The notes beneath the pieces were generated by a model. That model had not been told where the DNA came from. It saw only the letters and a list, made by a program, of their open reading frames with translations, and did no database searches. The position numbers and the translations under genes are program-made. A stretch of 64,000 nucleotides of DNA from Lingula anatina (Eukaryota > Animalia > Brachiopoda): positions 15,290,651 through 15,354,650 of the forward strand of contig CM120647.1 of assembly GCA_051362555.1 (NCBI GenBank). The letters run 5' to 3'. Below, in pieces: positions 96 to 46,652 of the stretch (its first letter is position 1; every line of letters begins with the position of its first letter).

Positions 96-3000
96 CTAAT
101 CCCAGCAATTTTCCTCATCACTGCCGTCTCCACAGTCGTCGTTCTTGTCGCACTGATAGATAGGATAAATGCAGCGACCGTTTGTGCATTTGACGTTGGG
201 CTGAGGGCATGGACAGTTCTTCTCGTCGCTCCCGTCTCCACAATCGTCCTGCATGTCGCACACCCACTGGGGAAATATGCAAATCCCAGTGGGGCACTGG
301 TGGGTCTTGTTCTCGGAGACGCATTGGCAGTTTCCGGTGTCGTCTGCTTCGTCACTTCCGTCCCCACAGTCGTCGTAACCATCGCATTTGAATGCGACCA
401 TGATGCATTTGCCGTTTGCGCACTCGAATTGCTTGTCCCCACACGGAGACGGGCAATCTAGTTCGTCGCTGCCGTCAAAGCAGTCCTTCGTGCGACTGCG
501 ATCGCAAGCCAAAATCGCATGGATGCACTGCCCGTTTGCGCACTTGAATTGCCGTTCGGGGTCACAGTCAGAGAACGTACAGTTATCTTCGTCCCCGCCG
601 TCTGCGCAATCGAGAGAGTAATCGCACACGAAATCTTTCGGAATGCACTCAGCGTTTGAGCATTCGAAGCCCAGGCTACCGCAGCGGTTTGGACAGTCTT
701 TTTCGTCACTTCTGTCGGGGCAGTCGTTGACAAAGTCGCACCTCACTGACTCTGGCACGCAGCCTCCCTGGGCACAGGTGAACTCCGTGTCGTTACAAGG
801 CCTGTAGGTGCAATTTGTTTCGTCGTACCTGTCACCACAGTCGTCATAATGGTCGCAGACAAGAGCGACAGGAATGCATCTACCATTTAGACACCGAAAT
901 TCGAAACTTTGGCATGGCGGCATGCAGCCTGTTTCGTCACTTCCGTCTCCGCAGTGATCTATGTCGTCACACACCAGTGACGCTTGGATACATCGTTTGT
1001 TAGCACACTCATACTGGTCGCCAGTACAAGGGCATTCCATTTCGTCCTTTCTGTCTTCACAATCGTATCGCCCGTTGCAACGCCAAGAGAGCGGAATCAA
1101 GGCGCCATTTCCACATTGGAAGGTGGTGCCCTCTATCGACTTGATCTGATCGCATTCGATTTTTGAGCAATTGCCGTTGGCCAGAGAAGGTCCTTGTAAA
1201 GCGAATTCGGTTAAGCGGCTCCATTCGCAATCAGAACCACCTGCAATGAAATAATTGACCGGAGTGAAATGCATGTATATGAAATAGGGAGAACTTGATA
1301 ACACGAGAATAAACATTTGTTACGAAAAATATAAAAAGACGTTTTGATCTAATTTCCCATTATTTTATTATTTTTTGACTTTGAGCTCGAAACAGCAGTT
1401 ACGTTAACTTGCCACCAACCATCACACTTGAATACCGTTAACATCCAGCGTTGACGAGGTCTCTCCTTATTAAAGTTTTACCTACATGTAAAACGCACCC
1501 TTTCATTCATTGTTTCAGATTACTGGCTGTAAATTTTCTGTAAGTAACATACGCTTTTCGAAACCCTGCCTTTCATAGCACTTTCACATGAATCTCCTTA
1601 AATGAACCAGACACGACATTGTAAAAAAAAAAAAAAAATTCAACTTTTTTCAACATCGTCGTTTTGCTGGTTAACAAAGTTCAGATTCTCCAATTGTCTA
1701 TCATATAGACTGAGCAAAGGTATAAACGCCCCGTGTGAATAATACCTAACATTTGCACGGGCCGTTTATATTTTTATCTCAGTGTACGCAATGTACTGGA
1801 CCAACCTGCAGACGGATCCACCAGGCCATTGCAAATGGCTTCAGGGTCCACATTCATACAAGTCAGCTCCTTGTAACACACGGATGTCACATCTGGAAAG
1901 GAAACGTGGTCACATTTCGGTGCGGTTGATGGAGAACCCAAAATGAACTAGTCTGACAATGGTAGATGTTGTCAGACGTGGGTTATTATATTAGAATATC
2001 TTTGTTTGTCCGAGGCATTGTCTGGGAAGGTTTAGGATTGTCCGGAGGGAAGGGGAGGTCGTACTGATACCGTTAAATCAATTTTATTGTGATAACTTAT
2101 CACTGTTCTTACATGTTTACATACGTGTACTAATTATAGTGTCTTTGTAAAATAAGTGTATCCCAGTATACACAATGTACGGTGATTTAAAAAAAAAATA
2201 ATATGATGTTGATCGCTTGTCAGTAATGGATTAAAAAATTGAAAGTATCATATCCAATGATTCATAGCAAAAGGCTCATTTCTAATAATACTATCACTCT
2301 CATTAGATTGATCAAACTCTTTGGGGACTCTCGCTGAGTGCAATCAGATTGACAGATTAACACGCCTCTTCTTGTTTTCAACGTAGGCCTACTCGGGAAA
2401 TCACCGGCTTTTCTCTAGCGGTACGGCTACAATTTTCTCTAGCGGTACAGTTTTCTGTACCTCCCTATCTTGCCAGACAACTATCGCTCGATGTGAAAGA
2501 GGTCGGGTCTTACATTTGCAAACCTCCATACAAGGCAGAACAGGGAAAGGGCGTCGGTTCTCGTCCTGATAGCAACGGGGAAATAGCGCCTGACACAAGA
2601 AGGGCACCATGTACTGCGAGCAGTCGTGACACGCAGCCACACTCCGCAAGGACGCCAAGACGCTGGACTCCAGCGCTGTGGTCTAGAATTTAATGCAAGA
2701 ATAAATGGATTAACTAAAATATAAGTTGATTAAGTAATCAGAATACGTACGTGAATCCGAACATATAATAATAATAATAATAATAATAATAGTGAAAATG
2801 AAATAACATCAGTATTCTACTTACGGTGTCTTCGTGGCCAAATACATTTGGAAAGGCTGTCCCAAAACGTATTACGTGGGGGCACACGTCCACGCGTACA
2901 AATTCACATGGGTTCCAGGTTGCTGAAAAATATTAATAATAACAATAATAAGAAGAAGAAGAAGAAAGAGAAGAAGTAGAATAAGAAGAACTTAAGAGAC

Positions 3001-3716
3001 TCCAGAGATAATGGGTCGATATATAGGACCAGAAAGCTTATTTTTTAAATACCGTTTGTTGTTTCCTGGTCGTAAGATAAAAGCAGACCCATTGGCCTGA
3101 TTGCGTTGTACTTTAGTTTAATTCTCGCTTTAACAGTTTGTCTAGATTTATATTCAATACAAAGACTTGATACAAGGTATCCAAAAGTAATTCCAAAAAA
3201 GATCTGCCAAAATGGTTCCAGAAATGGTTTTGCATATACCCAATGTATTTTCTCATAAAGTAACCATGAACCCAAACATAAATAAATAAATAAAGGACAC
3301 AAAATGCGTATGCTTATGCATATACATAATACATGTATTTCATAAATTAAAAACCAGATAACCACACGCTCACCTTGTATAATAAAATACGCCATGATCG
3401 TCACACAGCCGAATATTGTAGCGGACGTCAACAGAACAAAAGGTCTGGAACACCACCCCGGCCTCGTGAAGCCACCGTACACCTCGCGTTCTTTTTCCTC
3501 TGTCTTAACCTTGTCACTGCAGAGCATGATCCCATTGAGGTTTACCTCCCGCTCCTTGTTCGCGATCAGCGCATCTAAGCTGTATTTACTGTCCATGCCA
3601 ACTTCTCGCTGTTGACCACCGGCCATAGCGCCTTCAATTAACCAATAAGGGAGGTGGTCAGCTTTCTCTGGCACCGACCAGTACTCGGTTTTGGCCAGTT
3701 CTTCTTTTCCGTCCAT
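96..3716 (-). CDS. Paralog 1: type II TM + Frizzled CRD + 9 LDLa repeats (corin-N-terminus-like architecture, no protease), ~613 aa
   Basis: Exons 3716-3374 (tail+TM), 2922-2825 ([10 protein letters not shown]...[12 protein letters not shown]), 2682-2514 ([20 protein letters not shown]), 1892-1806, 1240-96 (LDLa array, DCxDGSDE motifs). All introns are GT-AG, phases 1,0,1,1; total 1842 nt is in frame. Confidence 0.85.
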
Positions 3717-6094: not shown

Positions 6095-6143
<49 letters not shown>

Positions 6144-6174
6144 TAATACCATAAAAAATATCAAACAATTTCCT

Positions 6175-8586
6175 TCACACACGGCAGTTGAATTCATCAC
6201 TTCCGCCTGCACAGTGAGGGTAGCCATCACAAACCAGTGATCTTCGAATGCACTCACCGCTTGAACAGTGGTAATACGTCGAATCAAAACACGTGCAGTC
6301 TCCTTCGTCACTTCCGTCGAGACAATCGTCATCGAGGTCACAGTACGAGAACCCCATGATACAGTTACCGTTATCGCAGCGAAACTGCGACTCCCCGCAC
6401 GAGGAGCAGTTGCGTTCGTCACTTTGGTCGGGACAGTCTCTTTTTCCGTCACACACCATGGTAGTGTCGATACAAAGGGGTCCTTCCACACACCGAAAGT
6501 CAGTCTCGTTACAACACATGGCGTCCACTTCATCGCTCCCGTCACTACAGTGCTGGATTCCGTCACAGACGATTTCGTTGGGAAAGCAAAAACCACTGGG
6601 ACCGCAAAAGAATCCTTCGCACGTATTTGTGCAGTTTATTTCGTCACTTCCGTCACCGCAGTTATCAACACCGTCACATTCATGCCACAAATTGACGCAG
6701 TTTTTGTTGCTACATGTAAAACCAGGACAAGGGCAGTTGGATTCGTCCCTCTCGTTCGTGCAGTCGATCACGCCGTCACATTCCTGTCGTGCGTCGATGC
6801 ACTGTGCTTCGTCGCACTCGAAACCTTCGCACGTGCAACCGACTTCGTCACTTCCGTCCCTACAGTCGTCCATCTCGTCGCATACCCATGCAGGATTAAT
6901 ACACCTCCCATTAGAGCAGAGAAACTCCAAGCAAGGGCAGTTGTCTTCGTCGCTTCCGTCCCCACAATCGTCATATTCGTCACACTCATAATTAGAGTTG
7001 ACGCATTTGCCACTGGAACACTGGAAGTGCCCATGCGCTGAGCAGTTGCAGTTGAGTTCGTCTGACCGGTCACCGCAATGGTCGAAAAGATCACAATAAA
7101 GCACTCGTGACACACAATTATTGTTCTTGCACCAGAATTCGTTTGTGATGTCACAGGGTGAGCAGGTTTCTTCTGTTTCGTCACTTCCGTCCTCGCAGTC
7201 AATTATGTCGTCACACAGCCAAGATTTCCAGATACACTCTCCGCTGTGGCACTGGACCTGCAGGTTTTTGCAAAGCGAGGGACAGTTTTTTTCGTCACTG
7301 CCGTCCACGCAATCGACTCGTCTATCACATCTTGAAGAGATAGGGATAGTTGCCCCATTTTCACAGTAAAACTTTGAATCGTCGATAACTTCGCCTTGAC
7401 TTGTACATTTCGGGACTGCATCGCTCGGTAGCGCTAGCAGTTCAGAAATTTGCTCATTGAATCTGTACCAGTCGCAACGGCGTGGGCCTGAAATCAAATG
7501 TTGATACTTTTAACTTTCTTTCAAATACATAATTATCTGTTCATATGTGCCAATCCACAGATCCGTATTTCTTTCACTTAATATTATATAAATAAATATG
7601 ATCATTTCATGATCGATTGAAGGAAAGACGTAAGTAAAACCAATTCCTCCGAGTTTTGCTATACGTAAAGACAATAATCAAATCATTTATAAAAAGTACC
7701 CTTCATACTGAAGATATAGAATATATAATCCCATCTGAGCAGTCACAAAGCCGCCATACCAAAGTGACGGCACAATGACGTATTATGTCCACCTGCGGGA
7801 TCATAGTCCGCTGTCCCATATGCTGTTATATAGCGAATGCCAGCGTCTTTGCGTAAACGACATGTAACACACAGAGAAAAAGTAGGGTGCAAAGGTGCAA
7901 ACAAAAACTTTAATACAGCGAGATGTGGGACCAGCAGGTAAACAACCAGTTAGACTGACATCGGCCCTACCGCACATCAACCAGCAGACAAAAATGAAAC
8001 CGAGACAAAACAAAGTTTCACATGTGTGTGACGTCATGTATGTGACGTCAAAGCGTTGAAATGACGTCGTGTACGTGCCATCTTGGTCTTATTTCATGCC
8101 TTACCTACCTGTCGGCACAGCAGTATGTTGACATAGATTGGTGATGTTTAATCCAATCCTGTTAAGATCACGTTGGCACACTTTCGTCACAACTACAATG
8201 ACAAAATTTTGAAAATTTGAATTGAATTAACACTTTTGGCTCCACAGTTGTGTCGATAGCGCATTAGTTGAAATTAAGTCTCTCTTCTAAATGCTTAAGT
8301 GTCTTATCCTGCACTAAGAATATTTTTCTGTATTTATTCCTGTTTTTATTCCTACAAAATAAATCAAAACGGGCAAATTACAGTTGTTCGTGCAGATACA
8401 CTGTACATTGTATCCTTTATAATTATTTCCGTCCACTTATACGTTTAGCTGCGGCGATGCATTTGAAAAATATCGGGAAATCAAGAAAATAAGATGAATA
8501 AAGTAATATAAAAGTAATAAATAGCAAATATAAAACTAGTAACAGTTATTGGATTTGCCAGTAATGCATGCACATAATCACAAAAA

Positions 8587-8633
<47 letters not shown>

Positions 8634-8893
8634 AAAACATACATTTGCAAATATCTTCACAAGGTGGCGCTGGCGACATCCGCCCGCCCTTGTCTACGTG
8701 GCAACGTGGGAACATCATTCCGCACACGAAGGGTACAAGGTATTGAAAACATGGCGGACAAAATGGCGTCTCTTGGAACCGTGAGTATATCATGGACTTC
8801 AGAGCTGCCTCCTGGTGAAAAAGATGGATATGAATATTCAATAAAGACATAGCATTAGAACAGCAATTGTTTATTGCCTGGATACGGTTTTTG

Positions 8894-8943
<50 letters not shown>

Positions 8944-11842
8944 TTATTTGTTCTTATTGAATAACAATACCAATTTTTATTAGTCCATTATAATGATAAT
9001 CTTCATATTTTGCTTTAGATATTTAATGTTTCCTAATTTTTAATTGGAAAATGCTATCATCAAAAGTAATGCCTTAATACTTTAAAAATGGAAGCAAACA
9101 GAGTGAAACGCGAGTAACTATCCAATGTGAAGGTGGTGCGTTAATTGAGTACAATTCCTCAACTTACAGCATCTTCGTGGCCGAATGCATTGGGGAAAGC
9201 GGTGCCCTCAGTGAGTACGTTGGGGCAGGCGGTGATGTTGATATATTCACACGGGTCCAGCTTCTGTTCTGCTGAAATTGGAATTCAGTGATTGTTTAAC
9301 TCCATAACACTTCGGTGAAATTCAAATAATAGTGTAGACAGCAAAGATAGCAAATATACAGACATCATGACAAACAGGAAAACCGTGTTTGTAAAACTAA
9401 ACCGATCGAGCTGACTTTTTGAAAGGAACATGTCTTTCTTAAACAAAGTCACTCAGATAAAATAATAAAATGTTTTGCACTCATGGGGTGAACACCATCA
9501 AAGCACTTGCAACAACAACAAAAAAAAAGGGGGGGGGGGAGAACACACATATACATACACACAAAATTAACAACTTTTGTAAAAATCAGCCTGCTCATCC
9601 TAATTTTCAAGGAAATCTTTTTAGGCAAACAATGATACTCAGAAAATTTAAAGTGAAACAAATATATAGTTTTGGCAGTTACAAGGACTGCATGACGTTT
9701 CGGACGGGACAGCAACGGCGAAGGTCACATCGACGTCACGGACAAACAGTCATTACATGTAGAATAAAGACAAACAGTGTCTGTACGTAAAAACAAATTA
9801 TAAATGTTGAATGAATTATTTTAGGTCATGATGTTGACACTTTGCATTATGATTAGAGTATAAAAAGAGAATATAAAAGCCGTTTCATGGAATATTTTAT
9901 TTCATACCTTCGGCAATATCTTTTAACGGAAGGTGTGGACTCGGAAAATCTAGATTTGCGCAAATACTGTACACTTATAATATAATTTACCCCCCCCCCC
10001 CATAAATACCTATCGAGCTCCAGACAATATTACCACCTCATCTGCCTATACTATTAACGTATGCTACTAAGCTTTAAATGGATGTGCATATGTTTATGCG
10101 TTCGTCTTTTCGGACTCCACCACATGGTCAAAATGAAAACTTGCTTGTGGTGTATGAATGCCACACACATGCGTACACATAGCAATTCAACCGCTGTAAT
10201 CACTGAAGCTACACTGTAAAAACAGTGTTTAGCACTTAAACACATTTTTAAGCCCCTTTTTTGTCTCCTTTTTTTCGACGCGTTTAGCTCCTAAGCACGT
10301 TGAGCTCCTTAACATGTTACACGCTTTGACGCGTTTGACGCCTATTAAATGTATGGTGTATTTGCTTAACTTTTAGGTGGTAAGGGTCTCAACTGTTTTA
10401 GTTTCACATGCGCGCGCGTACACACACACACGAAGTCACGGTCACCTGTAACTGCTATAGCTATCTGCGTCTATAACAGGGTTCCGTGAACTGTCAACAT
10501 TGTTGACTAAGCACCATCACCTTTGCAGCGTGACTTATTCATCCTTGTGTTAGCTGACCTTGCGAAAATGTTTATTGGAATATATTTCTGAAAATCAAGT
10601 TAGGAAAATTCAGTAGTTTACTAAAAACACTAAACAGCTATCAGTTTTACTTTAAAACATTTTTTTCATATTTTGATGAAATGCGTTACGGTATTGATGT
10701 CTACTTATTTTTTACTGGAAGTAATGAACAATAGAACATCAGGATGATGGTGGGGTATTCATTATAATGGTTTATTTAAGCTTTCATCGCATGCTGGTTA
10801 TTTTGGTAACGATAGTCCGAATATTTAACAAATCGCACCGCTCTAGTCGTCTACATGTACTAACCCCAAGCCAAATTTGGAATAAACCGCTAACTGTAGT
10901 TCATACAGCACTAAGATCTAATAAACGGATATACAAGATCTTAGTACAGCATAAGACGTATTTGGGTTTTTTATAAAAAAGGTTTTCAAAACATTGAATA
11001 ATGTTTTTCCGGAATGTTATAAAACGCTTATAAAACCGCAGGGGCATCATATTGCATGGAGTTAAAAACACCCATAACGTTACCATACATTATTCTATAC
11101 CATCACCATCATGTAACCAGCTGATAACGTCGTGAATTTGTTATTTGGATTATTACTTAACACAACGCGTTCGAGCAGGCTGCTCCACGCCTCCAACAGC
11201 TCCATACGTTTACAAAGGGAAGAGTTAAGCCAAATTGTTGAGTCTTGTAATAAACTTGTTAAGGGATTCTGAAAATTTTTTTCTGTGACAAGCTTGAAAA
11301 GCTAAACCTGTTGTTCAGCAGCTCCACGCGTTTAGGAGTTCCACACCTATAGCAGCTCCATATGTTTAGCAGCCTCACGTGCTTAGCAGCCTCACGTGCT
11401 TAGCCAATGTGCTTAGCTTGTGATAGACTTGTTATAGAATCATATGCCGGTGAAGCTAAACACATAGCTAAGCATGTAACACTGCCAACGTGTCTAGCTT
11501 TTTCTTCTGTGAAACGCTTGAAAAGCTATACGTGTTTGGCTTTTACACATATTTCTAAATGCGTATAGGCGCCTAACGTGTGTTGTATGTATTTAAATGC
11601 TAAACATCGTTTTACAGTGTAGTGTAACTTCTCCATATTTAACCCCCCCCCCACTCAACCTGATTTCCCAACCCCCACCACCCTACAGATAAAAGAAGAA
11701 AAAGAAGAAAGACAGAATTAAAACAAACAAAACCTACAAATAACATTTCCGGCTCAAGGCAATCTCAGCCACAGTCACATCTATATACACGTTTAGTGCA
11801 TAAAATTACATTACCTGGATTGAGATAATAATAACATTTATA

Positions 11843-11896
<54 letters not shown>

Positions 11897-12346
11897 GACA
11901 TGGTACAATATACAAATATTAAACTTTGCCATTAATTAAATCACAAGCAAAATGAGTAAAAGAACCGAAAGCCAATCCCGATACTCACCACGTATTCCCA
12001 GATACGTAACAACTGCAGTGCCGGCTACTATACTAGTTAGCAGAAGTATTACCATCGGGACCAAACAGGGGTCTCTGCTCGTGTCACTTAACTCTCTCTC
12101 TTGGTCCTTGCAGCTAGCACTTCTCGGTTCCTTGGCGCCGTCACCGTTCATTTCATTGCCTCCATGGTTGTTTTCGACGTCAGCATCTGTTAACCAAAAG
12201 CGTTGGTCAAGTTGACCGGTTTTAACACTGGCAACCGAGCTGCTGGACGCAGCGTCCTCACCTGGTCCATTATCACACTGGTCAGTTTCGTTTTTATCGG
12301 ACATGCTTGTTACGCGCGCAGGTTGTTCACAGTTTTCCCCCTGCAT
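6175..12346 (-). CDS. Paralog 2: type II TM + Frizzled CRD + 11 LDLa repeats, ~675 aa
   Basis: Exons 12346(or 12304)-11989, 9271-9168 (CEYINITACP...TAFPNAFGHEDA), 8811-8643, 8192-8109, 7487-6175. GT-AG introns with the same phases as paralog 1; total 2028 nt. The start codon is uncertain. Confidence 0.85.
10212..11619. mobile_element. Non-autonomous EnSpm/CACTA-like DNA transposon in intron 1 of paralog 2
   Basis: Imperfect TIRs CACTGTAAAAACAGTGTTTAGCACTTAAA ... TTTAAATGCTAAACATCGTTTTACAGTG, TA on both flanks, and subterminal short repeats (ACGCGTTTAGC / CACGTGCTTAGC). Confidence 0.7.
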
Positions 12347-13250: not shown

Positions 13251-14376
13251 AGCGCCAACATCTGAACACCAGCTTCATTTTTGTCTATGTGGAGAAATCT
13301 TTAAGGCCTGAAAGTCCAATAAATGACAAAGAGCACTGTCTTCTTTTAAGTTTTAAGTTTGTTTGTTTTAACGAGCCATGATAGTTCTTAGTTTATCAGT
13401 AGCGAACCTCGTAAAAAAACGCACCGGTCACAAACATGCTAATGGTAATGATTTCTGTCGTGAGTGCCCTAGAGGAAGAAGCTGGTTAAAAGTTTTTAAC
13501 AGGACAAAAGAGAAGCCCCGGGCAGGAAAATCTCTTGCAACAGGTGTATGTTACCGATGGTGGGGAGTTAATGCACACTGTAATATTCATCAAAGACACG
13601 CGATGTGAAAGAGCCTACAGAGCCTGTATACCTCAATCTTTTTTTATTTAATCTTGTTTTCAGAAATGGAGAAAGGCACGATCATCCTGTTAGATAAGCA
13701 GATAAAACACACCCTCAGAATTTACATTATACTTCTTCACTAGGTGTCCAAGAGGTACAGCTTTATTTCCAGATTCGGGTAGAAAAAATAAGAAGGTATT
13801 TTGCCCTCAGCCAATGAGCAGGTCTCACTGCGTTGCTAAATCATTTTAAAACGGTAGAAAAAACCCGACGCAGATTCTGCATGCTGAAAGCATCAGCACA
13901 TTTAAGATGCAAGCCATTTAGCTGGCAGGCAGGGGTGGGGCTTTCCTGCAGATATACAGATAAAACTCAGTATGCAACACCTTTTTTCCAAATGAAAAAG
14001 CATTACACAGCTCAAGATTACAAAACCGAAATTCTTAACCAGATTTAATTTGCTGTCTATTCAAATTTAGTATTGCTTGGGCATTCTACATAGATATTAT
14101 CGATTTTGAAAATGACGAATCACGTGTTATTTTTATTTTGAGAGAGAACTTTATAAGAGAAACGCCAACATGTACAATACCATTGTGCTGTTTGATCGTG
14201 GTCGCTGCTGGAATAAATAAGACGTTCACCAGCTTTTAAATGTATATTTCTCCTGGTCACGAACATTACCGATGAAGCCATTGGCCATTCCCATATCCCC
14301 TAGGGCTCTGTGCTGGCGTCTACCTCCATTATTTATTTTATCTGTTATTGGATAAATCCCGTGTCGTCAGTCGAGT

Positions 14377-14384
14377 TATAAATA
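14377..14384 (+). promoter_or_regulatory. Candidate TATA box of paralog 4
   Basis: TATAAATA about 100 bp upstream of ATG 14480. The background is AT-rich, so this is weak evidence. Confidence 0.3.
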
Positions 14385-14479
14385 AAGCTGCGATATTCTT
14401 TCCTTTTTCTATTATATTTGAAGTTTCGTAGATCCAGTGTCGACCGAAAGCACAATCTACGTCACCATAGTAGGCCAGT

Positions 14480-17400
14480 ATGTCTGAGGCGGACCAAAAC
14501 GTCCCTTCTAGCGAGAAAAACATTATGCCATCCAACGGAACAACCCATCCGGAAAATCCGGAGGCTCACGTTATTGATGTCAACAACGACAAATTGGACG
14601 GCCAAGAAGACCCGCAGGATCACGAAAAGAGCGACAGCTTAGAGAAAAAATTAGAGAGCGAACTGAGCAATTCTAAAGTGTGGTGGGTGTGGCCCATAAT
14701 CTTGATGACTTTTCTGATCATAATCGGCTGCGCGGCCTACATAACATATTACTTTTTACAAGGTAAGTGATAATCCAAACTTGTTTCGGTACAAAACACG
14801 CTTTCATAATGTTTTAGTTAACGGCGAATGTTTACAAGACCGACGGCTTTCAAACTCTTTCAAACCCACCCAGTCTGGCTGTAGAAAAAGCGACATATAC
14901 ACTGTAGGCCTAACACTGCATTATTTGACGGTACCATGATATTAGCTTTGTTCGGTTGCATCAGATTCAATGACCATTAGTGAAATAGAACAATTTCTGT
15001 TCTCTTGCAAACCCTGCCCAACCTGCTTTAGGTGATGATTTATAGATATCAGATGAGTACTAGCTCAATAAATAATATTATATGTATAATCGAACAATTT
15101 CTTTGCTTGGACATATACTTCGTCAGACAAACAACCCGTAGCCCTCCTTAACAGATAGATATTTTTCGGGCCCTGACTTGAATATTTATCTCCTCTACCA
15201 TTCCCAGCTTGGCCTCGTCAAGTGATTTTCTTTACATTTTCTGATTTTAAATTGGATGGGACTCTCGCAAACGCCATGATTCTTGAAGAAATATTCAAAT
15301 TAACTTTGACTCTCGTTTTGTCACGCGAGATGAACACGGGCACCATTTTGCTGAGATTTGGTGGTGAGGCCGGTGTAACAGGGATGGAAGTCCGCTAGGA
15401 ACCGTAGTTCGCTTTCCATTACTTTGTACAGGTGACATTGGTCCCATATACTAACCCCAATGCTCCAACTAACCCTTACCGATACTAAGCATACGGGAGC
15501 CGGACTTGCATTCCTAGGATTGCCATCCCTGATACACCTGTCAGCACTACGCCGCAATTATCAACTTTTATAATCACACATTTTAAATGATATATTTTCT
15601 GTTGTGGGGAGTTAATTCACTTGGTCGAGGGTTGACCCTCATGGTCTATTTGAACCAATTTTGCATTTGAGATCTCAAGTGGCGGCACGTTCAGGTTGAA
15701 AGTGAAGGAGGAGATACAGGTGTTGTTATATACTCTTAGTACAACAGATATAAATAGGGACCAACTGGAACAATTACGTAAAAGATGACGCAGTTATTTA
15801 GATGCATAAGCCTACCAAAGAAAAGTCAATCCACACTACTGAATTCTCAAAAGTTACATTAAATAGTTCTAAAATTCAATAAAACTGCCACTACGTATTC
15901 TGTGGTCCGCACTTTATTAATATCATGATCTTCGTTAAATGTGCACACACTAAGACAAAATGGTGTATACGAGAAACAATTATACTATACTCAGAAAATA
16001 ACAACAGTGCAATTTATACATATATTATTACTTCTATTCTTTTACGCGCCATCATATAATTATATTATTCTAAAAGTCTCCGTATAATTTTTCTAGTTGC
16101 ATTCTGGAGGATGAGAAGTCTTGGCTAAATACACAATGGAAGGATACGACGATTTCAGGCATTTTTTCTAAAATAAATAAACTTAATTTACAAATAGTGA
16201 AGATCGAAAAAAGAATCTCTTAACGCTTACTGTATAAAAATACAAACACTGGTTCGGACAAAATAATAATAATGATAATAATAATAATAATAATAATATA
16301 CCGCCACAGTTAGAAGTACTTTTAAATGGATGCGGCCCACTATTTAGTATTTCAGGCTTTTTCTAATGACAAAAACAAGTAAGTACATAAATAAATGCAT
16401 GGTGCAGTGGTCTAAAGAAACTGTGGTTCCGAATAATAGGGAGTCTGCCCTCTATTAGATTCACACGAATTAGATAAAGCGTGGCGTATGTGAGTGCCTC
16501 AAAATCTATTATACCGGCAGAATTACTGGTAGAATACGATGGGAACGTGCCTCTGTGTCAACATAAGGGCTCTCCCCTGCATGATGATGGAGGATAGAGT
16601 GTCTCAATCAAAGCAGTCCTCTTCATCACTTCCGTCATCACAGTCCAGGTATTCATCACACAGCCACCTAGATTTTATACACTCCCCATCTCGGCACTGA
16701 AAATACGTCGAATCAAAACACGTGCAGTTTCCTTCGTCACTTCCGTCGAGACAATCGTCATCGAGGTCACAGTACGAGAACCCCATGATACAGTTACCGT
16801 TATCGCAGCGAAACTGCGACTCCCCGCACGAGGAGCAGTTGCGTTCGTCGCTCTGGTCATAGCAGTCTCTTTTTCCGTCACATACTTTGTGAGGTGCAAT
16901 ACATAGGGTGTTTCCCACGCACCTGAAATCGGTGCTATTACAACACATGTCTTCTTCTTCATCACGTCCATCTTTGCAGTGAGAGTACCCGTCACAAAAT
17001 ACAGCGCTTTTGTCAGGAAAGCAAAAATCACCGGGTCCACAGTAAAGGCCTTCACACAACTCCGAGCAGTTTCTTTCGTCACTTCCGTCACCACACGAAT
17101 CAAAAAGGTTGCACACTTGTGATTCGTAAATACATAAGCCGTTGTCGCAGACAAAACCATCACACGTGCAGTTGCCTTCGTCACTGCCGTCGTCACAGTC
17201 CAACCACTGGTCACAGACCCAATGTGACTTGATGCACTTGCCGTCGCCGCACTCAAAACCGTCGCATACGCACATGGTCGCCTTCTCGTCGCTTCCGTCC
17301 CCGCAGTCGTCCATGCCATCACACACCCAGAAATTGAAAATGCATTTGCCATTAGCGCACGGAAATTGGTCGCACTCGCAGTCCGCTTCGTCGCTCCCGT

Positions 17401-19571
17401 CCTCACAGTCCTCGCTCCCGTCGCATTCCGAACCAGATTGGGCGCACTGTCCGTTGGAGCACTGGTAGTGCCCGTGACTGGCGCAGTCGCAGTTCCACTC
17501 GTCCGTACCATCTCCACAGTCGTCGGTTAAATCGCACGTGTTTAACTTCGACACACACTTGGTATTGTTGCACTGGATCTCCCTGTCTGCGTCACAATAG
17601 AAACACCCGCTTTCGTCACTTCCGTCTTGACAATCTCGAATTCTGTCGCACAGGAGAGACGTCCACACACACTCGCCGTTTGCGCACTGGGTCTGCAGTC
17701 GCCCGCACGCTGTTGGGCAGTGTATTTCGTCACTTCCGTCAACGCAATCGTCACGTCTGTTACACCTTAGTGCAATTGCAATAATTGCCCCGCTATCACA
17801 CCGATAATGTGACTGGCCCAAAGGTTTTCCATTAATAGTGCATTGAGGTTCCTTCGCCCCATTCGTTTTTGTTAGGGAGAGTATCCGAGTTGTTTCTTCG
17901 TTGAAGTTGTACCAGTCACAACGAGGGGGGCCTGAAATAAATGGCAGTCCAGAAATGTCCGATATCAAAATCATCTCAATTTTCTCTAAAATAAAATGAC
18001 ATGTACTATTGTTTGAGGTGTAGCTTACCGGTAGTCAGTGACGCCGCAGAGGTCAATTCAGTGCAGAACGATGTTGTGTTGATTCCCATCTTCGTCATCT
18101 CTTTCTGGCAGGCTTTTGTAACGACTGCAAGAATAGAACACATTTCATGACCAAGTGAAACTCTTCTAACACTAATGCTTTTGCTCATTTTGCAGCCCCG
18201 CGTATTTTGTTATTTTTATTTTTGTTGTTGTTGTTGTTATGGATCCTTATGATGTCCAGAATGTGTGTTTGGCCATTTGAAGTCATCAACAGATGTGGTA
18301 AAAAACTTCCAACAAGCACAATTACTTAATTTAAGTATTTCAATATAAAGGGATAAAATTAAAACAAAATACAGCACTTTTTAATGATAGATGTAAAATT
18401 ATAAAACAAAACAAAAAACGGTATTATAGCTTACATGTGCAAATATCCGTACAAGGCAGAACCGAAGATACTCTTCCGTTGTTGTCATGGTAACATCTCG
18501 GAAACATGACGTCACACAGGAATGGCAACAGATACAAAGAACAGGAAGGGCATAACACCATAGACTGCATTGCTAAGTATGTACTCGATTCCATAACATC
18601 TTTCTGGCAGAAAAAGAAAAAAATCAACGTAAATAAAATTCCCTTTGTGTTTTTATAATTGTTCTGTTACGCATAAGAAAATAGACAAATAAGCACTGTT
18701 ACCATGATGTATTCTAGCAGACAAACAATACGAAGTTACCAAATCTAATTTAAATTCGATGATCTATTCCTTTCAGCTTGCCTCATTCATTTTGAACTAT
18801 ATGTACGTATATATTTGTTTGCTTATAAATAGATAATGCAAGAGTTCAACTCACAATGTCCTTATGACCAAAAAAGTTGGGAAATCCTGCGGCTGCGGTT
18901 TGGACACCTGGACATAAAGTGGCATTCACTACAATACAGGGCTCTAGCTTCTTTACACCTGAACAACCAAAATAACACAAACTTAATTTCGCACTTAATA
19001 TACACACAATAACAATTGTGGGTTACCCTTGAAAGGAAAAGCCCAGCAATCCAAAACCAAGTTATACAAATGGCGTGCTTGATTTGACTGATTTGACCCA
19101 CCGAGTCCAATTTGATGGACGATCACCTACCGCATGCTTCAAATTGTTAATGAGATATAATAATTTTTGCCAGTTGATGACACATTTAGAGGTTATGAAT
19201 GAATTGAGTGAAAGTTTGGTCAAAAGCATTGAGTACCAGGTATTAGCATAAAGTTATCACAGACAACTGTTCTTTTTTTATATAAATCAATGGTACATGT
19301 AGGACTTCAACACCAACAGAGGACATCGGTGAAAAAATTATTTTTACAGAATCAGTGTAAAATGACTTCTTGATACCAGTGTGATGGCACAGTGATGTTT
19401 GCTGCGAGTTGTAGATGGTATACTTAAGAGAATTTGTGAAAGAAAATAGTATGTGTCTTAACTTGATATACACAGGTGACTTTAAATATTTGTTTAGCAT
19501 TAAGAAGGCAACAGGATGAAAGATGTATGCAATGGAAACGCTACAAAATTAACGATTAAACGAAAAAGCAA

Positions 19572-19618
<47 letters not shown>

Positions 19619-22600
19619 AAAATCCACTCACCGGCATCCGCGAAGTAGGCAACAACACCAATACCGGTTACAATGGCAGCAATCAACAAGGCAACCATAG
19701 GCATCAAACACCAATCTCTTTCAAGGTGGGATTTGAGACTCTCTCGGTCTGTGTCCGTGAGTTCCTTGCTGCCGCTAGTGTCCGTGCTCTTTAGGCTCTC
19801 CGTGCTGTTATCGGATGTCTTCATATCAACTCCTTCTTGATCATCTTCTTGACCATGTGTCGCAGTGCTCACGCCAACCGAATCGGGACACTGGTCATTG
19901 TCCTTGACCACATCATGCGTGGTGTCATTAGGGAGAGGGGTCTCCATGTTAAGCTTCCTTTCAGGGGAAATTATATCGGGCTGTATTTTCTAAAGTGCTT
20001 TCAAAGTCTCACAAAACTCTCGCAGAGAAGAAAAGTTTTCTATATGCAGTTCAGAATATAAGCTCAGGAGCTTCCAAAGACGCAGACCAGTATCCAGAAG
20101 GCGCCAAAACACGTCTCTTTAAAAAAAAACTTCTTTCAAGCAGATGAAAAAGTGGCCGGTTGATCTATTTCTCTGTCGTGAACCACATTGCCGCTTTTGA
20201 GAAGCATGCAAACAGTTCACATAATACCGGCTTGGTTCTTCGTATGGTTACAAAAATATCCTCTGGTATTTATTGAAGTGCCACCCGTGAGGTAATGGAC
20301 TGACGAGGCGTCTAAGGATAGTGAAGGGCATGATCGCCTCTGGGATAATAAAAAAATGGGCACATCTGCTTAGGCAGTGGACTTAAGTGGGTTTAAGGAT
20401 ATTGTGCGGCGCGACTGCCCTTGGGATAAGAACTGACTGGGCACCAATACGAAAGTGCAATACTTGGAAATACATCATTATGACAGGTGCAGGGGACTTA
20501 GATATGCACTGGTAATGGGCACCTGAGGTTAAATTTTCTCTGGAAGTCACTAAAATATCATTTATGTACAGATGTTTGTTTTATTTGTTGATACGTCAGT
20601 TGTTAACCTGAAAAGAACGCTGCGTGAAACAAAGGAAAATTGTTTTCGGTCGTTTGTGAACGAACAGCGAAATTACTTCTGGATGGAATTAATGAACAGT
20701 TATCGATGCCTTGTCGGGTCATTGGACAGTCATATTGGTTTGTCGTTACTGGGTAATATAAGATCTGTTTGGGTTCTTGGATATCTTAGATTACATGTAC
20801 TTTCGAACCCAGCTCAAAATATACATTTATTCTTTGTTGGTAGCAGGTTGTGGCGCATTTATAAACGTACATTAGCACGCACTGATTGGTCGTCCTATAA
20901 GAAATAATTAACTGCCCCATTCTTTTTATAGATTGGTACTGGTCCGATTTGTACTGTCCTATTTATAGATTTAACCTCCCGTACTGACAACAACCAATTA
21001 ACGCTTGTCAACGAAAATTTTCATGGTCCATCTATTTGTCATATATTTTTCATATCTGTCTTAGACAAATACTGTGATGTCCGGTCTGTGTAAAGCCGAG
21101 ACTTTGTCAAGAGGAGCTCTGGATAAATGTTGGAAAATCATCACCTGCTGGCGTTTAATGTATTGCATCTGTTTTTTTTTTTTTTTTTTTTTTTTTTTTG
21201 TTTTTTGTCGATTATGGCAAATAACTCACTGTTTTTAAAAGAACTTCATGTTATATTTCTCCAGCTGTCAAAAGACTGTGTATCTCAATTCATGACACGG
21301 AAACCAAGTAAAAACTATAGATCTAAGGGTGCTTTTTAAAAATATCAAGTTGTTTTTTATTCTCTCTCCTTACCGACATCCGGCATCTGTTTTGTACTTT
21401 CACATTAATTTTTGTTGTAATGTGTTGAATACGTCTCCTCCTTGACTTTCTATTGTTTAGATCAAAAAATTTATTCATATATCTCTATGGTGTTTATTAT
21501 TCGCGAACACTTTAAAGATGTATCCATTTATGGTTATATACACGTTATTTCGAGTTAATATAAAGAGAAGTAGATCAAAATGTGTGTCAAAATGTGTGTA
21601 ACGTCCAAGAAAAATAATATTACTTCAAACTAGTATTTATTAACAATGCATTTTTCTTTGACAATTTATTAGAATTTTATTTTATTAACAATACATTGGA
21701 AATGGCGGTAAAAGTTTGGGAAACTTCAAACCTATGACTTCCTGCTTGGGTTGCTGATGGGTGCTCTCTGATAACAGGTATCGCCACCGATCTGTCTTTA
21801 AACTGTCGAGACCATTCTTCAGTTATGTTATAGGCTGTACTCGAGGTCCCTGTGATATCTGAGGGTAGCCAATTCGTACTTCATGGGTGCCGTAATGGCT
21901 ATTTTAAAGCCGAATGTGGGTCTAAATATGGGTCCACTGAATGGTGACCCACAAGAAACCCTTTGGCCTCCTGGGACCCCTTTTCTGCTTTATTTCAAAA
22001 GATGAAAAAAAAAACACTGTTAATACGTTGAAACACCAGCCGAACCGTCAATTAGTGACGTTCTAGAAATCGTCCTGTGACAGATAATTTCAGCCTAGCA
22101 ATAGTTTAAGTATTTTTATACACATCTCTTCTCCTTTTACTTTATTTCACTAGCAAATGAGTAACATAGGGACAGACAGGTTTACTGGTTTAAAACCGTT
22201 AGATGTTACGTAAAGTAACGCCTCATATAACAATGTGTAGCAATACTTAAAAAAACATTTCTTGGCTGATTTCAGGAAGTAAATTCTTGCTAATGCTTTT
22301 TGCCAATGCTTAAATGGCACCGCCCCAGGCACTAATTCTCATGAAGCAGGTGCTCTTAAAATCAATTAGTTATACAAAGTCTGCTAAATAGGTGAAAAAC
22401 CTCTTATATATTCGTGTAGGATTAAAATCGAGAAAGCAAGAATCCTCAAGGCATTGTTCTTTATTTACCTAACTCACGGTAATAGAACAGTAAGGGGTGC
22501 TGTCAAAACGCACGGGGCAGTAGTCGGCAATTTCGATCAAAGATGATTTTTTTCTGGAGAAATGTAACTTTTTAGCTTCTTAGTTGACCCAACTTGAATA

Positions 22601-23796
22601 TAATGGCAAAGAGCCTAGATTAAATTTTGATACAGAGCGGACCGGTCGTTTCTGGTTCTATTATTAATATCAGAAGAGCATGTACAACAACAATTCACAC
22701 TTATTGATAATATTTATATGGGCCGATTAAAACCCTCTGTTCTTTTCGAACTGCTTAATGTACTTTAAAGATTATTCTATTGTACCACACATGTAAAATT
22801 GGGGCCCAAATGTACCCATTAACTAAAACGTCTTTCTGTTTGTCACCAGGCAAATAAAACTGCTCTTTGGGCGTGGGTTTTTGCTCTTCATGATGTCATA
22901 TGCTCTATGAATGAATAAATTACAACAACTGAAGTACTTTTGATATGAAATCTATCCATTCAAAGAAGTTGATGCAATTAAAGACTTTTAAAAATTTACA
23001 AAAAAAAAAAAAAAAAAAAAAAAAAAAGGAGAGCTTGTAAAATTCTTCACTACATATACATGTATTTGTTTTTTAGTTGGACCTAAAAAGTGTGAGTACC
23101 ACGACGTCCCGATGTGCCCAGGTGTCAGCTTTGGGGGTGTCATGTTTCCTAACACACTAGGGCATCAAGATCTGGTAAGTAGACATAGGAACGTCAAGAT
23201 GATAAATGGTAGACATATAGGGTGTACAATGGCAAATATAGTATGGATGAAGAATTACAATGTATATTTTTATTCTTTTATCACTTCTCTCTCTCTCTGT
23301 CTCTCTCTCTCTCTCTCGCACACAGTAGAATTAAATGAAATAAATGAGAAATTACTATTACTCCTACATGTGCTACTACTAGTACTACCACTAGTAAAAA
23401 TAATGAAAATTAAGAAATGAAGAAAGAAAGAAAGAAACAAAAGATAAAAAGAACAGATGATAGAAAAATCGATAAATAAAGAAAATAAAATAAAGTAAAT
23501 CAGGGTAAGACTGCACATCGACCACTATGCTGTTTGTATTTTTATTTAGGCCACAGCAATGAAATCCGCCATGTATTCGTCGCTGGAGAGCACGGTCCCT
23601 TGCTTTAACTGTTCTGAGTACCTCGTTCTCGTGATTTGTGACAAGTTGTTCCCACCCTGCCGCCATGATGCCCAAGGCCGTGAGTTGTTGGCTTCGACCT
23701 GTGCTGATACGTGCACAGGTAAGGTTATTGTTTCGAAATGTCTGTCGACTTTGAATAGTCTTTTAGTTTTTTTTACTTTAGAATACACTTTACTCC

Positions 23797-23837
<41 letters not shown>

Positions 23838-26286
23838 ACACACACACACACACACACACACACGTCAACCATCTGCTACAGACTTTGTTGATAAGGTGAA
23901 AAAATAACCATAAGACCGGGGAAACGTGACAGAGAGTCCCCCATGATAGAGCGTCTGCTTCCCATCCACATGTGCAGGTAAATCTCGCCCTAGATTTTCA
24001 CCCACCTAAGTCAGACTAACCTTAACCGTGATAACTAAATGGAGGGTGGGCATTCAGTTACACGGACCCTCAGTTTCGTTACAGCGAATTCGAAATTCTT
24101 TTGACACCTTGATATTTCTAGTTAAAAGTCGTAACTATCCAAATAAACAATCTAAGGAAAACACGCTCCTGGGACTACTCTTAATCTTGAGGATCTTTAA
24201 GCAATTGCTTTAACTCATTTTATTCTCTGTGTATATAACGCTCTGTTACTTAAGATGATAAACTTGTATATCAATGCACATAATACAATTATGAATATAT
24301 ATGTTCTTGCAGCTGCGGTGGCTTCCTGCCAGGCAGAACTGCAGTATATGGGGATCGAAAAAGACAACTTATGCACTGGTATGGAGAATGCTTCTTCTGA
24401 CCATCTCGGTAAGATCGCACGTTCGCTTCATGATAATAGCTTCAAAATTTTTCATCGAGGTATACATCGTCATTTTTTTAAAAATAAGAATAAGATGAAA
24501 AATGTTTTCATTTTTGAGCTGATACGAACTTATTTAGTATCACTGGTACAAAATTACACGATTTGCACAATAAGAAACTGAAGACTTCGGCATTAAATTC
24601 AACTGATGGACATATGAATTAATGTCTTTCAAATAAGTTTTTAATCTATACAATATATATTCTAGCTTTTAAACCAGTGAAAATTTGCTGGTTTCAGATA
24701 TTCCAGACTGTCATTGGCACCAGTGGCCAATGAATGAGACTCGGTCGTCACTTCCGGTTCCGGCTGACTGTACCCAAGTAATGCAGGGATTGGTTGGTAA
24801 TGTAAATAAAAATGTCAAGACCGACTTCCAGTGCAGTAACGGGACGTTCATTCCAGTGACTTTGCTATGTAACGGCCGAGGAGACTGCGCTGACGAAAGT
24901 GACGAACAGAATTGCCCTTCTGTCGGTTGTGGCAGCCTCGAGTTTTCGTGCCAAGATGGCGTTTGCATAGACGCTTCTTTGGTCTGTAACGATAGAAACG
25001 ATTGTGTGAACGGAAGAGACGAGGCGGACTGCCCATGTGATTCATCCGAATTCCGCTGCACAAATGGTCAGTGTGTCCGAAACAGCAAGACCTGTGACGG
25101 CAGTGACGATTGCGGCGACGGAAGTGACGAAATGAACTGCGCGTCAACCTGTGGCTCTTTGTTCACCTGCGGTAACGGCCAATGCATCCCTAGCCGACTG
25201 GAGTGCAACGGGGTCGACAACTGTGGAGATGGCACCGACGAAATTAATTGCAGGTGCGACGGCATGTTTTGCCTTGATGGACGATGCATACAAAATAACC
25301 AGATATGCAATGGGCGCCCTGACTGCGATGACGCACGCGACGAAACCGACTGCCCGTGTGAAGAGTCCGAATTCCGCTGCACGAATAGCACGTGCATCCA
25401 AGACGTCAAGATCTGTGACAGCATCGATGACTGCGGCGACGGAAGTGACGAAACAAACTGCACCATCACGCCGACTTGTGATGCTTTCTACTTCACCTGC
25501 AATAACGGCGAGTGCGTTTATAGGCCATGGCAATGTGATGGGGAAGCTGACTGTGAAGACAGTAGTGATGAGGAGGGTTGCGTGTGCAGCGGCATGTACT
25601 GCGCTGATGACAGCTGCGTACGGCAGGACCAGATCTGCAACTATCGCTCTGATTGCGATGACGGGCGTGACGAAGTGAATTGCACGTGCGACCGTTTTCT
25701 TTGCCATGACGAGTCCGGGTGCGTCTACGACTCTTGGTTGTGTGACGGTGAGGATGACTGCACGGACGGAAGTGACGAAATCAACTGCACCATAACGTGT
25801 GACATGTTCTTATGCGCCAACGGGAAGTGCATTTATACCTTTTGGACGTGCGATCTAACCGACGACTGCGGAGACGGTAGTGACGAAGAGAACTGCACAT
25901 GCGGTGAGTTCCTTTGCGCTAACGGCAAATGCATATACGACAACTGGCACTGCAACGGACTCGACGAGTGCGGTGACGGAAGTGACGAAATAAACTGCAC
26001 GTGCGACGGTTTTGAATGCACTAGAGGAAAATGCATCAGACTTTCGTGGCAGTGTGACGGCGAAGATGACTGCGGGGACCACAGCGACGAGAAAGGCTGC
26101 CCGTGTGAAGAGTCCGAGGTCCGCTGCCCGGATGGGCTGTGCGCCCAAAACAACGAGACGTGCTACGCAGTTGAGTCTCATTGTGGTTCGTTTTTCACCT
26201 GCGCAAACGGCGATTGTATTTTACATTCGTGGGTGTGTGACAAGGAGGATGACTGTGGGGACGGGAGCGATGAAGTGGGTTGCTAG
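14480..26286 (+). CDS. Paralog 4: type II TM + Frizzled CRD + 13 complete and 1 partial LDLa repeats, ~744 aa
   Basis: Exons 14480-14762 (tail+TM, ends CAAG|GTAAGT, phase 1), 23077-23174 ([10 protein letters not shown]...[11 protein letters not shown]), 23550-23718, 24313-24408, 24698-26286; total 2235 nt in frame. Joining exon 1 across the 8.3-kb intron is inferred from phase and homology; exons 2-5 are firmer. Confidence 0.78.
16604..19947 (-). CDS. Paralog 3: type II TM + Frizzled CRD + 11 LDLa repeats, ~670 aa
   Basis: Exons 19947-19632, 18958-18855 ([10 protein letters not shown]...[11 protein letters not shown]), 18603-18435, 18124-18029, 17931-16604. GT-AG introns; total 2013 nt; the LDLa array is colinear with paralog 2 repeat for repeat. 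Confidence 0.87.
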
Positions 26287-46391: not shown

Positions 46392-46618
46392 TATCTGAAG
46401 TATGCAAGGATATGTAATTTTTCAGTGTCACCGAGTTAATTTAAATGAAGGACATTATCCAGGCAACCTGCCTTTAAGACTTTTGTCTTTTGGACTCCCT
46501 ACTTGTTCTATTGTGGATTTCTTTTTGAAGCCCATAGGAGCTAAAAGGCCTGTCTCAATAAGAAAATCCTGGCTTAACCCATATCTCGCTGGCTAAAACA
46601 TATTACAGTTAATTTTTA

Positions 46619-46652
<34 letters not shown>

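What the first reader, a model, noticed from the sequence alone, without database searches (positions are those of the whole stretch)
96..26286. Four-gene cluster of protease-less type II membrane receptors: TM + Frizzled CRD + long LDLa array
Seen: four paralogs share a five-exon plan (phases 1,0,1,1; exon 3 is exactly 169 nt in all four). Each has a hydrophilic N-tail, one hydrophobic helix, no signal peptide, an FZ/CRD (C..C..FPNxxGH..C..FPxC..C..C) and 9/11/11/13 LDLa repeats running straight to a stop. Established: TM-FZ-LDLa in type II topology is the N-terminal arrangement of corin, which continues into a second FZ, an SRCR and a trypsin domain; MFRP combines TM, CUB, LDLa and FZ differently. 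LDLR-family proteins are type I with EGF/YWTD modules. FZ-CRDs bind lipidated Wnt, and LDLa arrays bind basic ligands and lipoproteins via Ca2+. Inference: this is a lineage-expanded, diverging family of non-catalytic cell-surface binding proteins (Wnt/lipoprotein capture, scavenging or recognition) that I do not recognise as a described family. The ORF track shows only disconnected pieces of it.
Basis: partly seen in the sequence, partly recalled or inferred. Interest (0 to 1): 0.85.

Follow-up and report, generated by a model that had tools for sequence, protein, structure and literature searches.

The report
Protease-less corin-like surface receptor cluster
Four intact neighbouring animal genes, one apparently nested backwards inside another's intron, are predicted to encode membrane-anchored proteins with a Frizzled-type domain and 9-13 LDL-receptor repeats but no protease, so they likely act as enzyme-free surface tethers for protein ligands that remain unidentified.

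Summary
Four five-exon paralogs (613-744 aa; phases 1,0,1,1; exon 3 always 169 nt) read open from a hydrophilic N-tail through one hydrophobic helix, a 10-cysteine Frizzled-type domain and 9/11/11/13 LDLa repeats to a stop. No protease exon was found in the window. New here: gene 3 lies antisense inside the 8.3-kb first intron of gene 4's model. The four FZ domains form one old clade (100/99) with dN below dS, and no member at comparable divergence appeared among 1.84 billion representatives. The layout has precedents: hemichordate TM-FZ-LDLa7-trypsin proteins, corin's stem, an arthropod Fz+LDLa-only cluster, and worm EGG-1/2. RNA support is thin: sparse exon reads, 0 of 16 junctions listed. 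Best reading: non-catalytic type II surface tethers whose LDLa arrays bind protein ligands. Wnt capture is untested, and the FZ lacks three Frizzled-type sequence motifs. Verdict: a real, apparently undescribed, lineage-restricted family; a new variant of a known kind.

The parts
96..3716 (-). g1: TM-FZ-(LDLa)9-stop, 613 aa; exons 3716-3374, 2922-2825, 2682-2514, 1892-1806, 1240-96
   Evidence: single read pairs on exon 5 in X2, X3, X8 in the sense-consistent orientation, but about two pairs in X1 and one exon-1-bin pair in X2 in the opposite orientation
6175..12346 (-). g2: TM-FZ-(LDLa)11-stop, 675 aa; exons 12346-11989, 9271-9168, 8811-8643, 8192-8109, 7487-6175
   Evidence: about one read pair in the exon 1 bin in X2
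16604..19947 (-). g3: TM-FZ-(LDLa)11-stop, 670 aa; exons 19947-19632, 18958-18855, 18603-18435, 18124-18029, 17931-16604; nested antisense in the predicted intron 1 of g4
   Evidence: sparse sense-consistent reads on exon 5 (X1) and in the exon 1 bin (X2)
14480..26286 (+). g4: TM-FZ-(LDLa)13-stop, 744 aa; exons 14480-14762, 23077-23174, 23550-23718, 24313-24408, 24698-26286
   Evidence: sense-consistent reads on exon 5 and its 3' end in X1 (depth 0.6-3.8); 5 X2 reads whose loose end matches g4 25939-25968
14480..14762 (+). g4 exon 1: acidic hydrophilic tail, signal-anchor helix, phase-1 GT donor; starts 2134 nt from the g2 start codon, head to head
14763..23076 (+). predicted g4 intron 1 (8314 nt), containing all of g3 on the opposite strand
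   Evidence: junction not seen in RNA
2514..2682 (-). g1 exon 3 (169 nt): FZ core, C3-C7 plus the family's extra CxxC cysteine
8643..8811 (-). g2 exon 3 (169 nt): FZ core
18435..18603 (-). g3 exon 3 (169 nt): FZ core
23550..23718 (+). g4 exon 3 (169 nt): FZ core
6273..6420 (-). g2 tract identical at 147 of 148 nt to g3 16849-16702, inside exons otherwise about 55-67% identical: likely recent gene conversion
16702..16849 (-). g3 copy of the near-identical tract
26287..26304 (+). six codons after the g4 stop that read like the start of a further repeat; possible relic of a longer array
   Evidence: interpretation is inference

Best explanation
These four intact paralogous genes are predicted to encode non-catalytic type II membrane proteins that likely hold protein ligands at the cell surface through calcium-dependent LDLa arrays. 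Shown by the sequence: a hydrophilic N-tail, one hydrophobic helix, a Frizzled-type domain 5-10 residues beyond it, then 9-13 LDLa repeats ending at a stop, with no catalytic or signalling domain. Inferred: the helix is an uncleaved signal anchor, so the tail is cytoplasmic and the disulfide domains are outside. The FZ domain forms a membrane-proximal base and the LDLa array points outward, binding basic patches of secreted or coat proteins. They would work like the substrate-recognition stem of corin without its protease, or like worm EGG-1/2: as tethers or co-receptors for partners that do the catalysis, uptake or signalling. The paralogs are old and differ in repeat number and sequence, which would give them different ligands or cell types. 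The ligand is not identified.
For: Four open five-exon models with one shared exon plan. Pfam Fz and LDLa. The FZ cysteine pattern holds in 4 of 4, and 35 of 44 repeats keep both acidic positions flanking C5 besides the terminal DE. dN is below dS in all 6 FZ pairs, where dS is 1.6-2.2 or saturated. No trypsin or EGF motif in six frames; one SRCR-like and two YWTD-like hits lie off-frame or outside the genes; the best tblastn match of the two hemichordate protease domains is E 2.2. g1 and g3 have no donor-like site in the last 60 coding nt. g4 reads are densest in the bin that includes its stop and 354 nt beyond. In corin, LDLR repeats 1-4 are substrate-recognition elements (PMC8365884, passage). 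EGG-1/2 are transmembrane LDL-repeat egg-surface proteins (PMC9936096, passages). Tails are unconserved; YxxPhi-type motifs occur only in g1.
Against: No splice junction was listed in 7 of 9 RNA runs laid (6-26% of each read), so TM-to-FZ joining, above all g4's 8.3-kb intron, rests on prediction. Reads on g1 and g2 are single pairs of mixed orientation. g2 has a weak phase-1 donor-like site 8 nt before the end of its stop codon, and g4 has donor-like sites near its end. Only 95 nt downstream of g1 are visible and no whole genome was available. Charges beside the helix do not clearly mark the orientation. No ligand, tissue or structure data.
Confidence: 0.6

Rival explanations
1. Wnt or lipid capture: the FZ groove binds the Wnt acyl chain or a free lipid/sterol, while the LDLa array grips the carrier (lipoprotein or lipocalin), making a membrane-bound Wnt or lipid sink.
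For: All 10 FZ cysteines are kept, with the FZD-type six-residue C7-C8 spacing (pattern from PMC6938638, passage). The nearest solved chains are sFRP3, ROR2 and Smoothened CRDs, though weak (E 0.024-0.87). A lipocalin gene lies about 2.5 kb beyond g4.
Against: Against a Frizzled-like row and corin FZ2, the four lack the proline of the F-x-P-L-V helix (3-4 extra residues and a CxxC instead) and the W-P after C8 (alignment; their role in Wnt binding is recalled). 0 of 4 have the NxS/T six residues after C2 said to be common to Frizzled receptors (PMC4669655, passage; sequences). The Wnt relevance of most non-Frizzled CRDs, corin's included, is unknown (PMC6747125, passages). Gene neighbourhood is weak evidence in an animal.
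Confidence: 0.17
2. Gamete- or egg-coat proteins in the manner of EGG-1/2 or the LDLa proteins of the sea-urchin fertilization envelope: a redundant, diverging cluster acting at the egg surface (a special case of the best explanation).
For: EGG-1/2 are redundant duplicated transmembrane LDL-repeat proteins. LDLa proteins build the sea-urchin envelope (bioRxiv 10.1101/369504, passage). The cluster is lineage-restricted, barely read in the runs laid, and has CpG o/e near 1.0 against 0.27-0.53 in the housekeeping half of the window, which fits narrow expression.
Against: Tissues of the runs are not known. No sign of positive selection (dN below dS). The EGG-1/2 passages seen name no FZ domain.
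Confidence: 0.1
3. Endocytic scavenger or lipoprotein receptors of inverted topology that take up LDLa-bound cargo themselves.
For: Long acidic LDLa arrays; g1's tail has three YxxPhi-type motifs.
Against: g2-g4 tails have no YxxPhi, NPxY or acidic dileucine match. There is no YWTD/EGF module, which LDLR-family receptors use to release cargo (recalled).
Confidence: 0.08
4. The models are incomplete or wrongly joined: these are 5' parts of type II serine proteases, or g4's TM exon is an orphan.
For: Hemichordate TM-FZ-LDLa7-trypsin proteins have this order. No junction reads. Weak donor-like sites near the g2 and g4 ends.
Against: g2, g3 and g4 have kilobases of downstream sequence in view with no protease match. 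All four arrays end at an in-frame stop within 3 codons of the last repeat's final cysteine. g4's TM exon ends in a consensus phase-1 donor at the same position as in the other three.
Confidence: 0.05

Closest known systems
Hemichordate TM-FZ-LDLa7-trypsin proteins (Saccoglossus LOC100373316, P0078; Ptychodera 'ST14-like', P0143)
   Same: N-terminal hydrophobic helix, one FZ immediately after it, then a continuous LDLa array.
   Different: They end in a trypsin domain, have 7 repeats and almost no N-tail. Their FZ scores 23.5 bits (P0078) on the window profile against 114-145 for family members and does not group with the window clade in the best tree (AU p 0.117).
Corin (type II serine protease; P0026, P0076, P0085, P0102, P0111)
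   Same: Type II anchor, FZ, then LDLa repeats. Corin FZ2 is among the best-scoring domains for the window FZ profile (42-45 bits; FZ1 19-21).
   Different: Corin has 2 FZ, 8 LDLa, SRCR and a protease (PMC8174325, passage). The window proteins have 1 FZ, 9-13 uninterrupted LDLa and nothing after. Sisterhood with FZ1 or FZ2 is unresolved (AU p 0.21, 0.23).
Unnamed arthropod Fz+LDLa cluster (ESM Atlas, 69 members, 938 aa, auto-named ANP-converting enzyme)
   Same: Only Fz and LDLa are listed for the cluster, with no trypsin or SRCR.
   Different: Longer; domain order, repeat number and topology were not seen, and it was found with a hemichordate query, not a window protein. Drosophila CG6739 may belong here (recalled); the one passage seen lists its function as unknown.
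C. elegans EGG-1/EGG-2
   Same: Duplicated transmembrane LDL-repeat surface proteins; type II topology is recalled.
   Different: No FZ is named in the passages seen. Relationship was not tested, and no egg expression is shown here.
LDLR/LRP family
   Same: Long Ca2+-type LDLa arrays; LRP-like fragments are common among the LDLa-exon hits at 45% identity or less.
   Different: No YWTD propeller or EGF, no C-terminal TM, inverted predicted topology.

Membership tests
Corin / type II transmembrane serine proteases | N-terminal signal anchor (type II) | tested here: met
   One hydrophobic helix at residue 70-95, none at either end; orientation is inferred, not measured
Corin / type II transmembrane serine proteases | FZ plus LDLa stem | tested here: met
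Corin / type II transmembrane serine proteases | C-terminal trypsin domain with activation site | tested here: not met
   Stops after the last LDLa; no IVGG/TAAHC/GDSGGP match and best hemichordate protease tblastn E 2.2 in the window; DNA beyond g1 not visible
Corin / type II transmembrane serine proteases | Second FZ and SRCR domain (vertebrate corin) | tested here: not met
   Only four FZ exon sets in the window, one per gene; Pfam finds only LDLa-type families on exon 5
Corin / type II transmembrane serine proteases | FZ domain descends from a corin or hemichordate protease FZ | tested here: inconclusive
   AU p 0.12-0.23 on a 24-row tree
LDLR/LRP receptors | LDLa cluster with acidic Ca2+ motif | tested here: met
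   35 of 44 repeats keep both acidic positions around C5
LDLR/LRP receptors | Type I topology with YWTD/EGF modules and NPxY tail | tested here: not met
Frizzled-type CRD (Fz domain) | 10-Cys pattern CnCnCX8CX6CnCX3CX6,7CnCnC | tested here: met
   4 of 4, plus one extra Cys in a CxxC (pattern from PMC6938638)
Frizzled / sFRP Wnt-binding proteins | Frizzled-type motifs (F-x-P-L-V helix, W-P after C8, NxS/T at C2+6) | tested here: not met
   Alignment and sequences; first two motifs recalled, third from PMC4669655
Frizzled / sFRP Wnt-binding proteins | Binds lipidated Wnt | not testable with these tools
   No model of the spliced FZ and no binding data
MFRP | CUB domains with a C-terminal FZ | tested here: not met
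   No CUB on exon 5; FZ is next to the membrane helix; MFRP order recalled
EGG-1/EGG-2-like egg surface proteins | Transmembrane protein with LDLa repeats | tested here: met
EGG-1/EGG-2-like egg surface proteins | Oocyte-surface expression and role in fertilization | not testable with these tools
   Run tissues not given; sparse reads

The most novel reading that the evidence does not exclude
An undescribed class of inverted receptors that puts a Frizzled-type lipid pocket against the membrane and an LRP-type ligand array beyond it, so that one chain catches a lipoprotein or lipocalin carrier and unloads its Wnt or lipid cargo; the four paralogs are tuned to different carriers, and the nested antisense and head-to-head layout coordinates which is expressed.
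Probability: 0.12. Interest if true: 0.8.

Novelty: new variant of a known kind. Interest (0 to 1): 0.45.

Why it matters
The family appears to be missing from public protein sets at its own level of divergence and from the papers searched, and annotation pipelines would likely call it LRP-like or corin-like. It is a natural experiment on what a corin-type FZ+LDLa stem does without a protease; the role of corin's FZ domains is described as unknown (PMC6747125). It also shows that such FZ domains are easy to miss: Pfam did not report the FZ of P0078, P0143 or P0006. Without a ligand or tissue it remains a domain-architecture finding in a group of modules that invertebrates shuffle often.

Tried and rejected
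No whole genome was held, so further paralogs and DNA beyond g1 were not examined. RNA index: no RNA holder listed; 9 same-label raw-read runs offered, 7 laid; most laid reads came from repeats near 5250-5400, 15416-15480 and 23920-24080; the one listed joint (15435-23985, CA..TC ends) joins two repeats and was rejected as a splice. Word-indexed search with the exon-3 alignment: 0 of 667 candidates at E 10, weak evidence. LDLa-exon search: best 120 of 383 hits, none above 45% identity; 5 of 120 carry precomputed Fz+LDLa, all mammalian corin. Of 143 fetched proteins 27 have an FZ by my profile and none is TM-FZ-(LDLa)n-stop with a single FZ; two predicted bat corin isoforms lack the protease but have two FZ. 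P0128 and P0137 were left out as repeat-like false hits. The 53-row tree finished only as a quick tree with long-branch warnings; the 24-row tree left out the long-branch rows P0006, P0129, P0131, P0134, P0125_59 and near-duplicates. The Atlas could not read the window peptide; a feature search excluding protease and Frizzled clusters gave no usable hit. Earlier scan findings: none by words, sequence or place; one search listed unrelated FZ fusions. Alternative first exons for g4: 5 other short ATG-to-donor candidates, none with a TM-length helix (best 19-mer 0.93); one has a short hydrophobic start (13378-13459) and cannot be excluded as a signal-peptide exon. No structure or complex was predicted. 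The animal group was not determined.
Full report
Setting. The window is animal DNA with spliceosomal introns; its second half holds a lipocalin gene, a DIRS-type retrotransposon, a SAND-domain gene and Sec6. No whole genome was held and the animal group was not determined.

Observation. A six-frame scan found four LDLa arrays, three on the minus strand and one on the plus strand. Reading the DNA and scanning for hydrophobic helices gave four five-exon models of 613, 675, 670 and 744 aa. All 16 introns are GT-AG, phases are 1,0,1,1 and exon 3 is 169 nt in each. Each protein has a hydrophilic tail of 69-94 residues, one hydrophobic helix, an FZ domain over exons 2-5 and an LDLa array within exon 5. 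Pfam gives Fz on exon 3 in 4 of 4 and 9/11/10/13 LDLa stretches; motif counts are 9/11/11/13. The FZ meets the published 10-Cys pattern (PMC6938638, passages) in 4 of 4 and adds a CxxC cysteine. In all four the first repeat lacks its third cysteine (alignment). These shared oddities mark one family.

g4's TM exon is at 14480-14762, head to head with g2 (2134 nt between start codons). Its FZ exons start at 23077, and g3 lies on the opposite strand in the 8314-nt gap. Of 34 donor-like plus-strand sites examined, 6 had an upstream ATG frame of 12 or more codons and only this one carried a TM-length helix. The junction itself was not seen in RNA.

Function or decay. FZ identity between paralogs is 35-47%. 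dN is 0.45-0.69 and dS is 1.6-2.2 or saturated in all 6 pairs. Old duplicates with unbroken frames point to working genes. g2 and g3 share a 148-nt tract with one difference inside exons otherwise about 55-67% identical, likely recent gene conversion.

Is a protease missing from the models? No trypsin or EGF motif occurs in six frames, and the two hemichordate protease domains find nothing better than E 2.2. Each array ends within 3 codons of its last cysteine. Caveats: g2 and g4 have weak donor-like sites near their ends, and only 95 nt beyond g1 are visible.

RNA. No indexed RNA holder was listed; 9 same-label raw-read runs were offered and 7 were laid, 6-26% of each. All 16 predicted introns lay within a laid stretch and 0 were listed as joints (threshold 3 reads). 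X1 has sense-consistent reads on g4 exon 5, rising to depth 3.8 in the bin spanning the stop, and on g3 exon 5. X2 has 5 reads that trace to g4 exon 5. g1 and g2 have only single pairs, some in the opposite orientation. X4, X5 and X7 showed essentially no exon coverage of g3 or g4. So transcription of g3 and g4 has weak support and splicing has none. CpG o/e is about 1.0 across the cluster and 0.27-0.53 in the housekeeping half, which would fit unmethylated, narrowly expressed genes (inference).

Relatives. The LDLa exon retrieves generic LDLa proteins at 45% identity or less (best 120 of 383). The exon-3 profile against 1.84 billion representatives gave 14 hits; the 4 single-domain hits scored 35.8-38.7 bits, whereas a left-out family member scores 59-80 bits. 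No member at the family's own divergence is therefore among those representatives, which could mean lineage restriction or missing annotation. Similar layouts exist: TM-FZ-LDLa7-trypsin in Saccoglossus and Ptychodera, LDLa5-FZ-LDLa6 in Amphiura, and a Ptychodera polycystin-like protein with 12 Fz and 19 LDLa. With the Ptychodera protein as query, the Atlas listed a 69-member mostly arthropod cluster carrying only Fz and LDLa. Among 143 fetched proteins, 27 had an FZ and none had the window's layout. On a 24-row FZ tree the four form a clade (100/99) on a long stem; joining them to corin FZ1, corin FZ2 or the hemichordate proteases is not rejected and not shown (AU p 0.21, 0.23, 0.12). 'Corin that lost its protease' is thus a description of architecture, not a demonstrated history.

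Mechanism. Shown: domain order, lack of catalytic or signalling domains, and retention of acidic motifs in 35 of 44 repeats. From established knowledge (recalled): LDLa repeats bind basic ligand patches through Ca2+-caged acidic residues, and disulfide domains fold in the secretory pathway, which implies type II topology. Corin's LDLR repeats 1-4 serve substrate recognition (PMC8365884, passage); its full layout is in PMC8174325 (passages); insect corin is TM-Fz-LDLa-SR-protease (PMC1761132, passages). EGG-1/2 are duplicated transmembrane LDL-repeat proteins on the worm egg (PMC9936096, passages; bioRxiv 10.1101/369504, passages). Inferred: the four are surface tethers or co-receptors. Only g1 has YxxPhi-type tail motifs, which argues against a shared endocytic role. 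Wnt binding is possible but unsupported: three Frizzled-type motifs are absent, matches to solved CRDs are weak, and most non-Frizzled CRDs have no established Wnt role (PMC6747125, passages).

Literature. Ten searches were run. Six aimed at this architecture and listed no paper describing it; the others concerned EGG-1/2 (29), sea-urchin envelope proteins (48), corin's stem (65) and CG6739 (68; one passage seen, function unknown). The library omits most subscription papers, and no supplements were read, so a genome-paper domain table could already list such genes. PMC4669655 (passages) shows that lineage-specific FZ genes are a known phenomenon. PMC7605860 was seen only as a search listing.

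Verdict. It is not a member of the corin/TTSP, LDLR, MFRP or Frizzled/sFRP families by the features tested. It is a new variant of a known kind: a protease-less FZ+LDLa type II stem, expanded in one lineage. Interest 0.45, held down by close architectural precedents, no junction evidence and no ligand.

Noticed in passing
window 14763-23076 (+) and 16604-19947 (-): g3 is nested antisense in the predicted first intron of its own paralog g4, and g2 and g4 start head to head 2134 nt apart; shared promoter or transcriptional interference is possible.
   Followed up: partly
window 6273-6420 and 16702-16849: 147 of 148 nt identical between g2 and g3 across about one LDLa repeat: likely recent gene conversion; an assembly artefact is not excluded.
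   Followed up: partly
window 26287-26304: The codons after the g4 TAG read like the start of another repeat, and a half repeat precedes the last full one; the array may have been shortened.
   Followed up: partly
g4 residue 503 (exon 5): One g4 repeat has a DSSDE motif, reported (search listing of PMC7605860 only) to direct apical targeting of corin and CD320; absent from g1-g3.
   Followed up: no
window about 28736-31630 (-): Lipocalin gene convergent with g4; last exon matches Pfam Lipocalin at E 7.6e-5. Upstream exons were only read by eye.
   Followed up: partly
window 36507-40518 (-): DIRS-type retrotransposon with long open frames: gag-like 383 aa, RT/RNase H/Dam-like 734 aa, integrase-like 412 aa; the family name is recalled from this layout.
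   Followed up: partly
window about 44700-47060 (-): SAND-domain gene (E 1.8e-22 on 46149-46418), apparently head to head with Sec6.
   Followed up: partly
window about 47700-57350 (+): Multi-exon Sec6/EXOC3 gene (4 of 7 plus-strand frames tested matched Pfam Sec6).
   Followed up: partly
window 1-31000 versus 32000-64000: Sharp change in CpG o/e from about 1.0 to 0.27-0.53, as expected for mosaic gene-body methylation.
   Followed up: partly
P0121 (Ptychodera flava): A 4406-aa polycystin-1-like protein with 12 Fz and 19 LDLa domains before REJ, GPS, PLAT and channel domains.
   Followed up: no
P0078, P0143, P0006: FZ domains that Pfam did not report in my scans but a custom profile found, so architecture searches may undercount FZ+LDLa proteins.
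   Followed up: partly
window 5250-5400, 15370-15500, 23920-24080: Short interspersed repeats that attract most RNA reads laid on the region.
   Followed up: no
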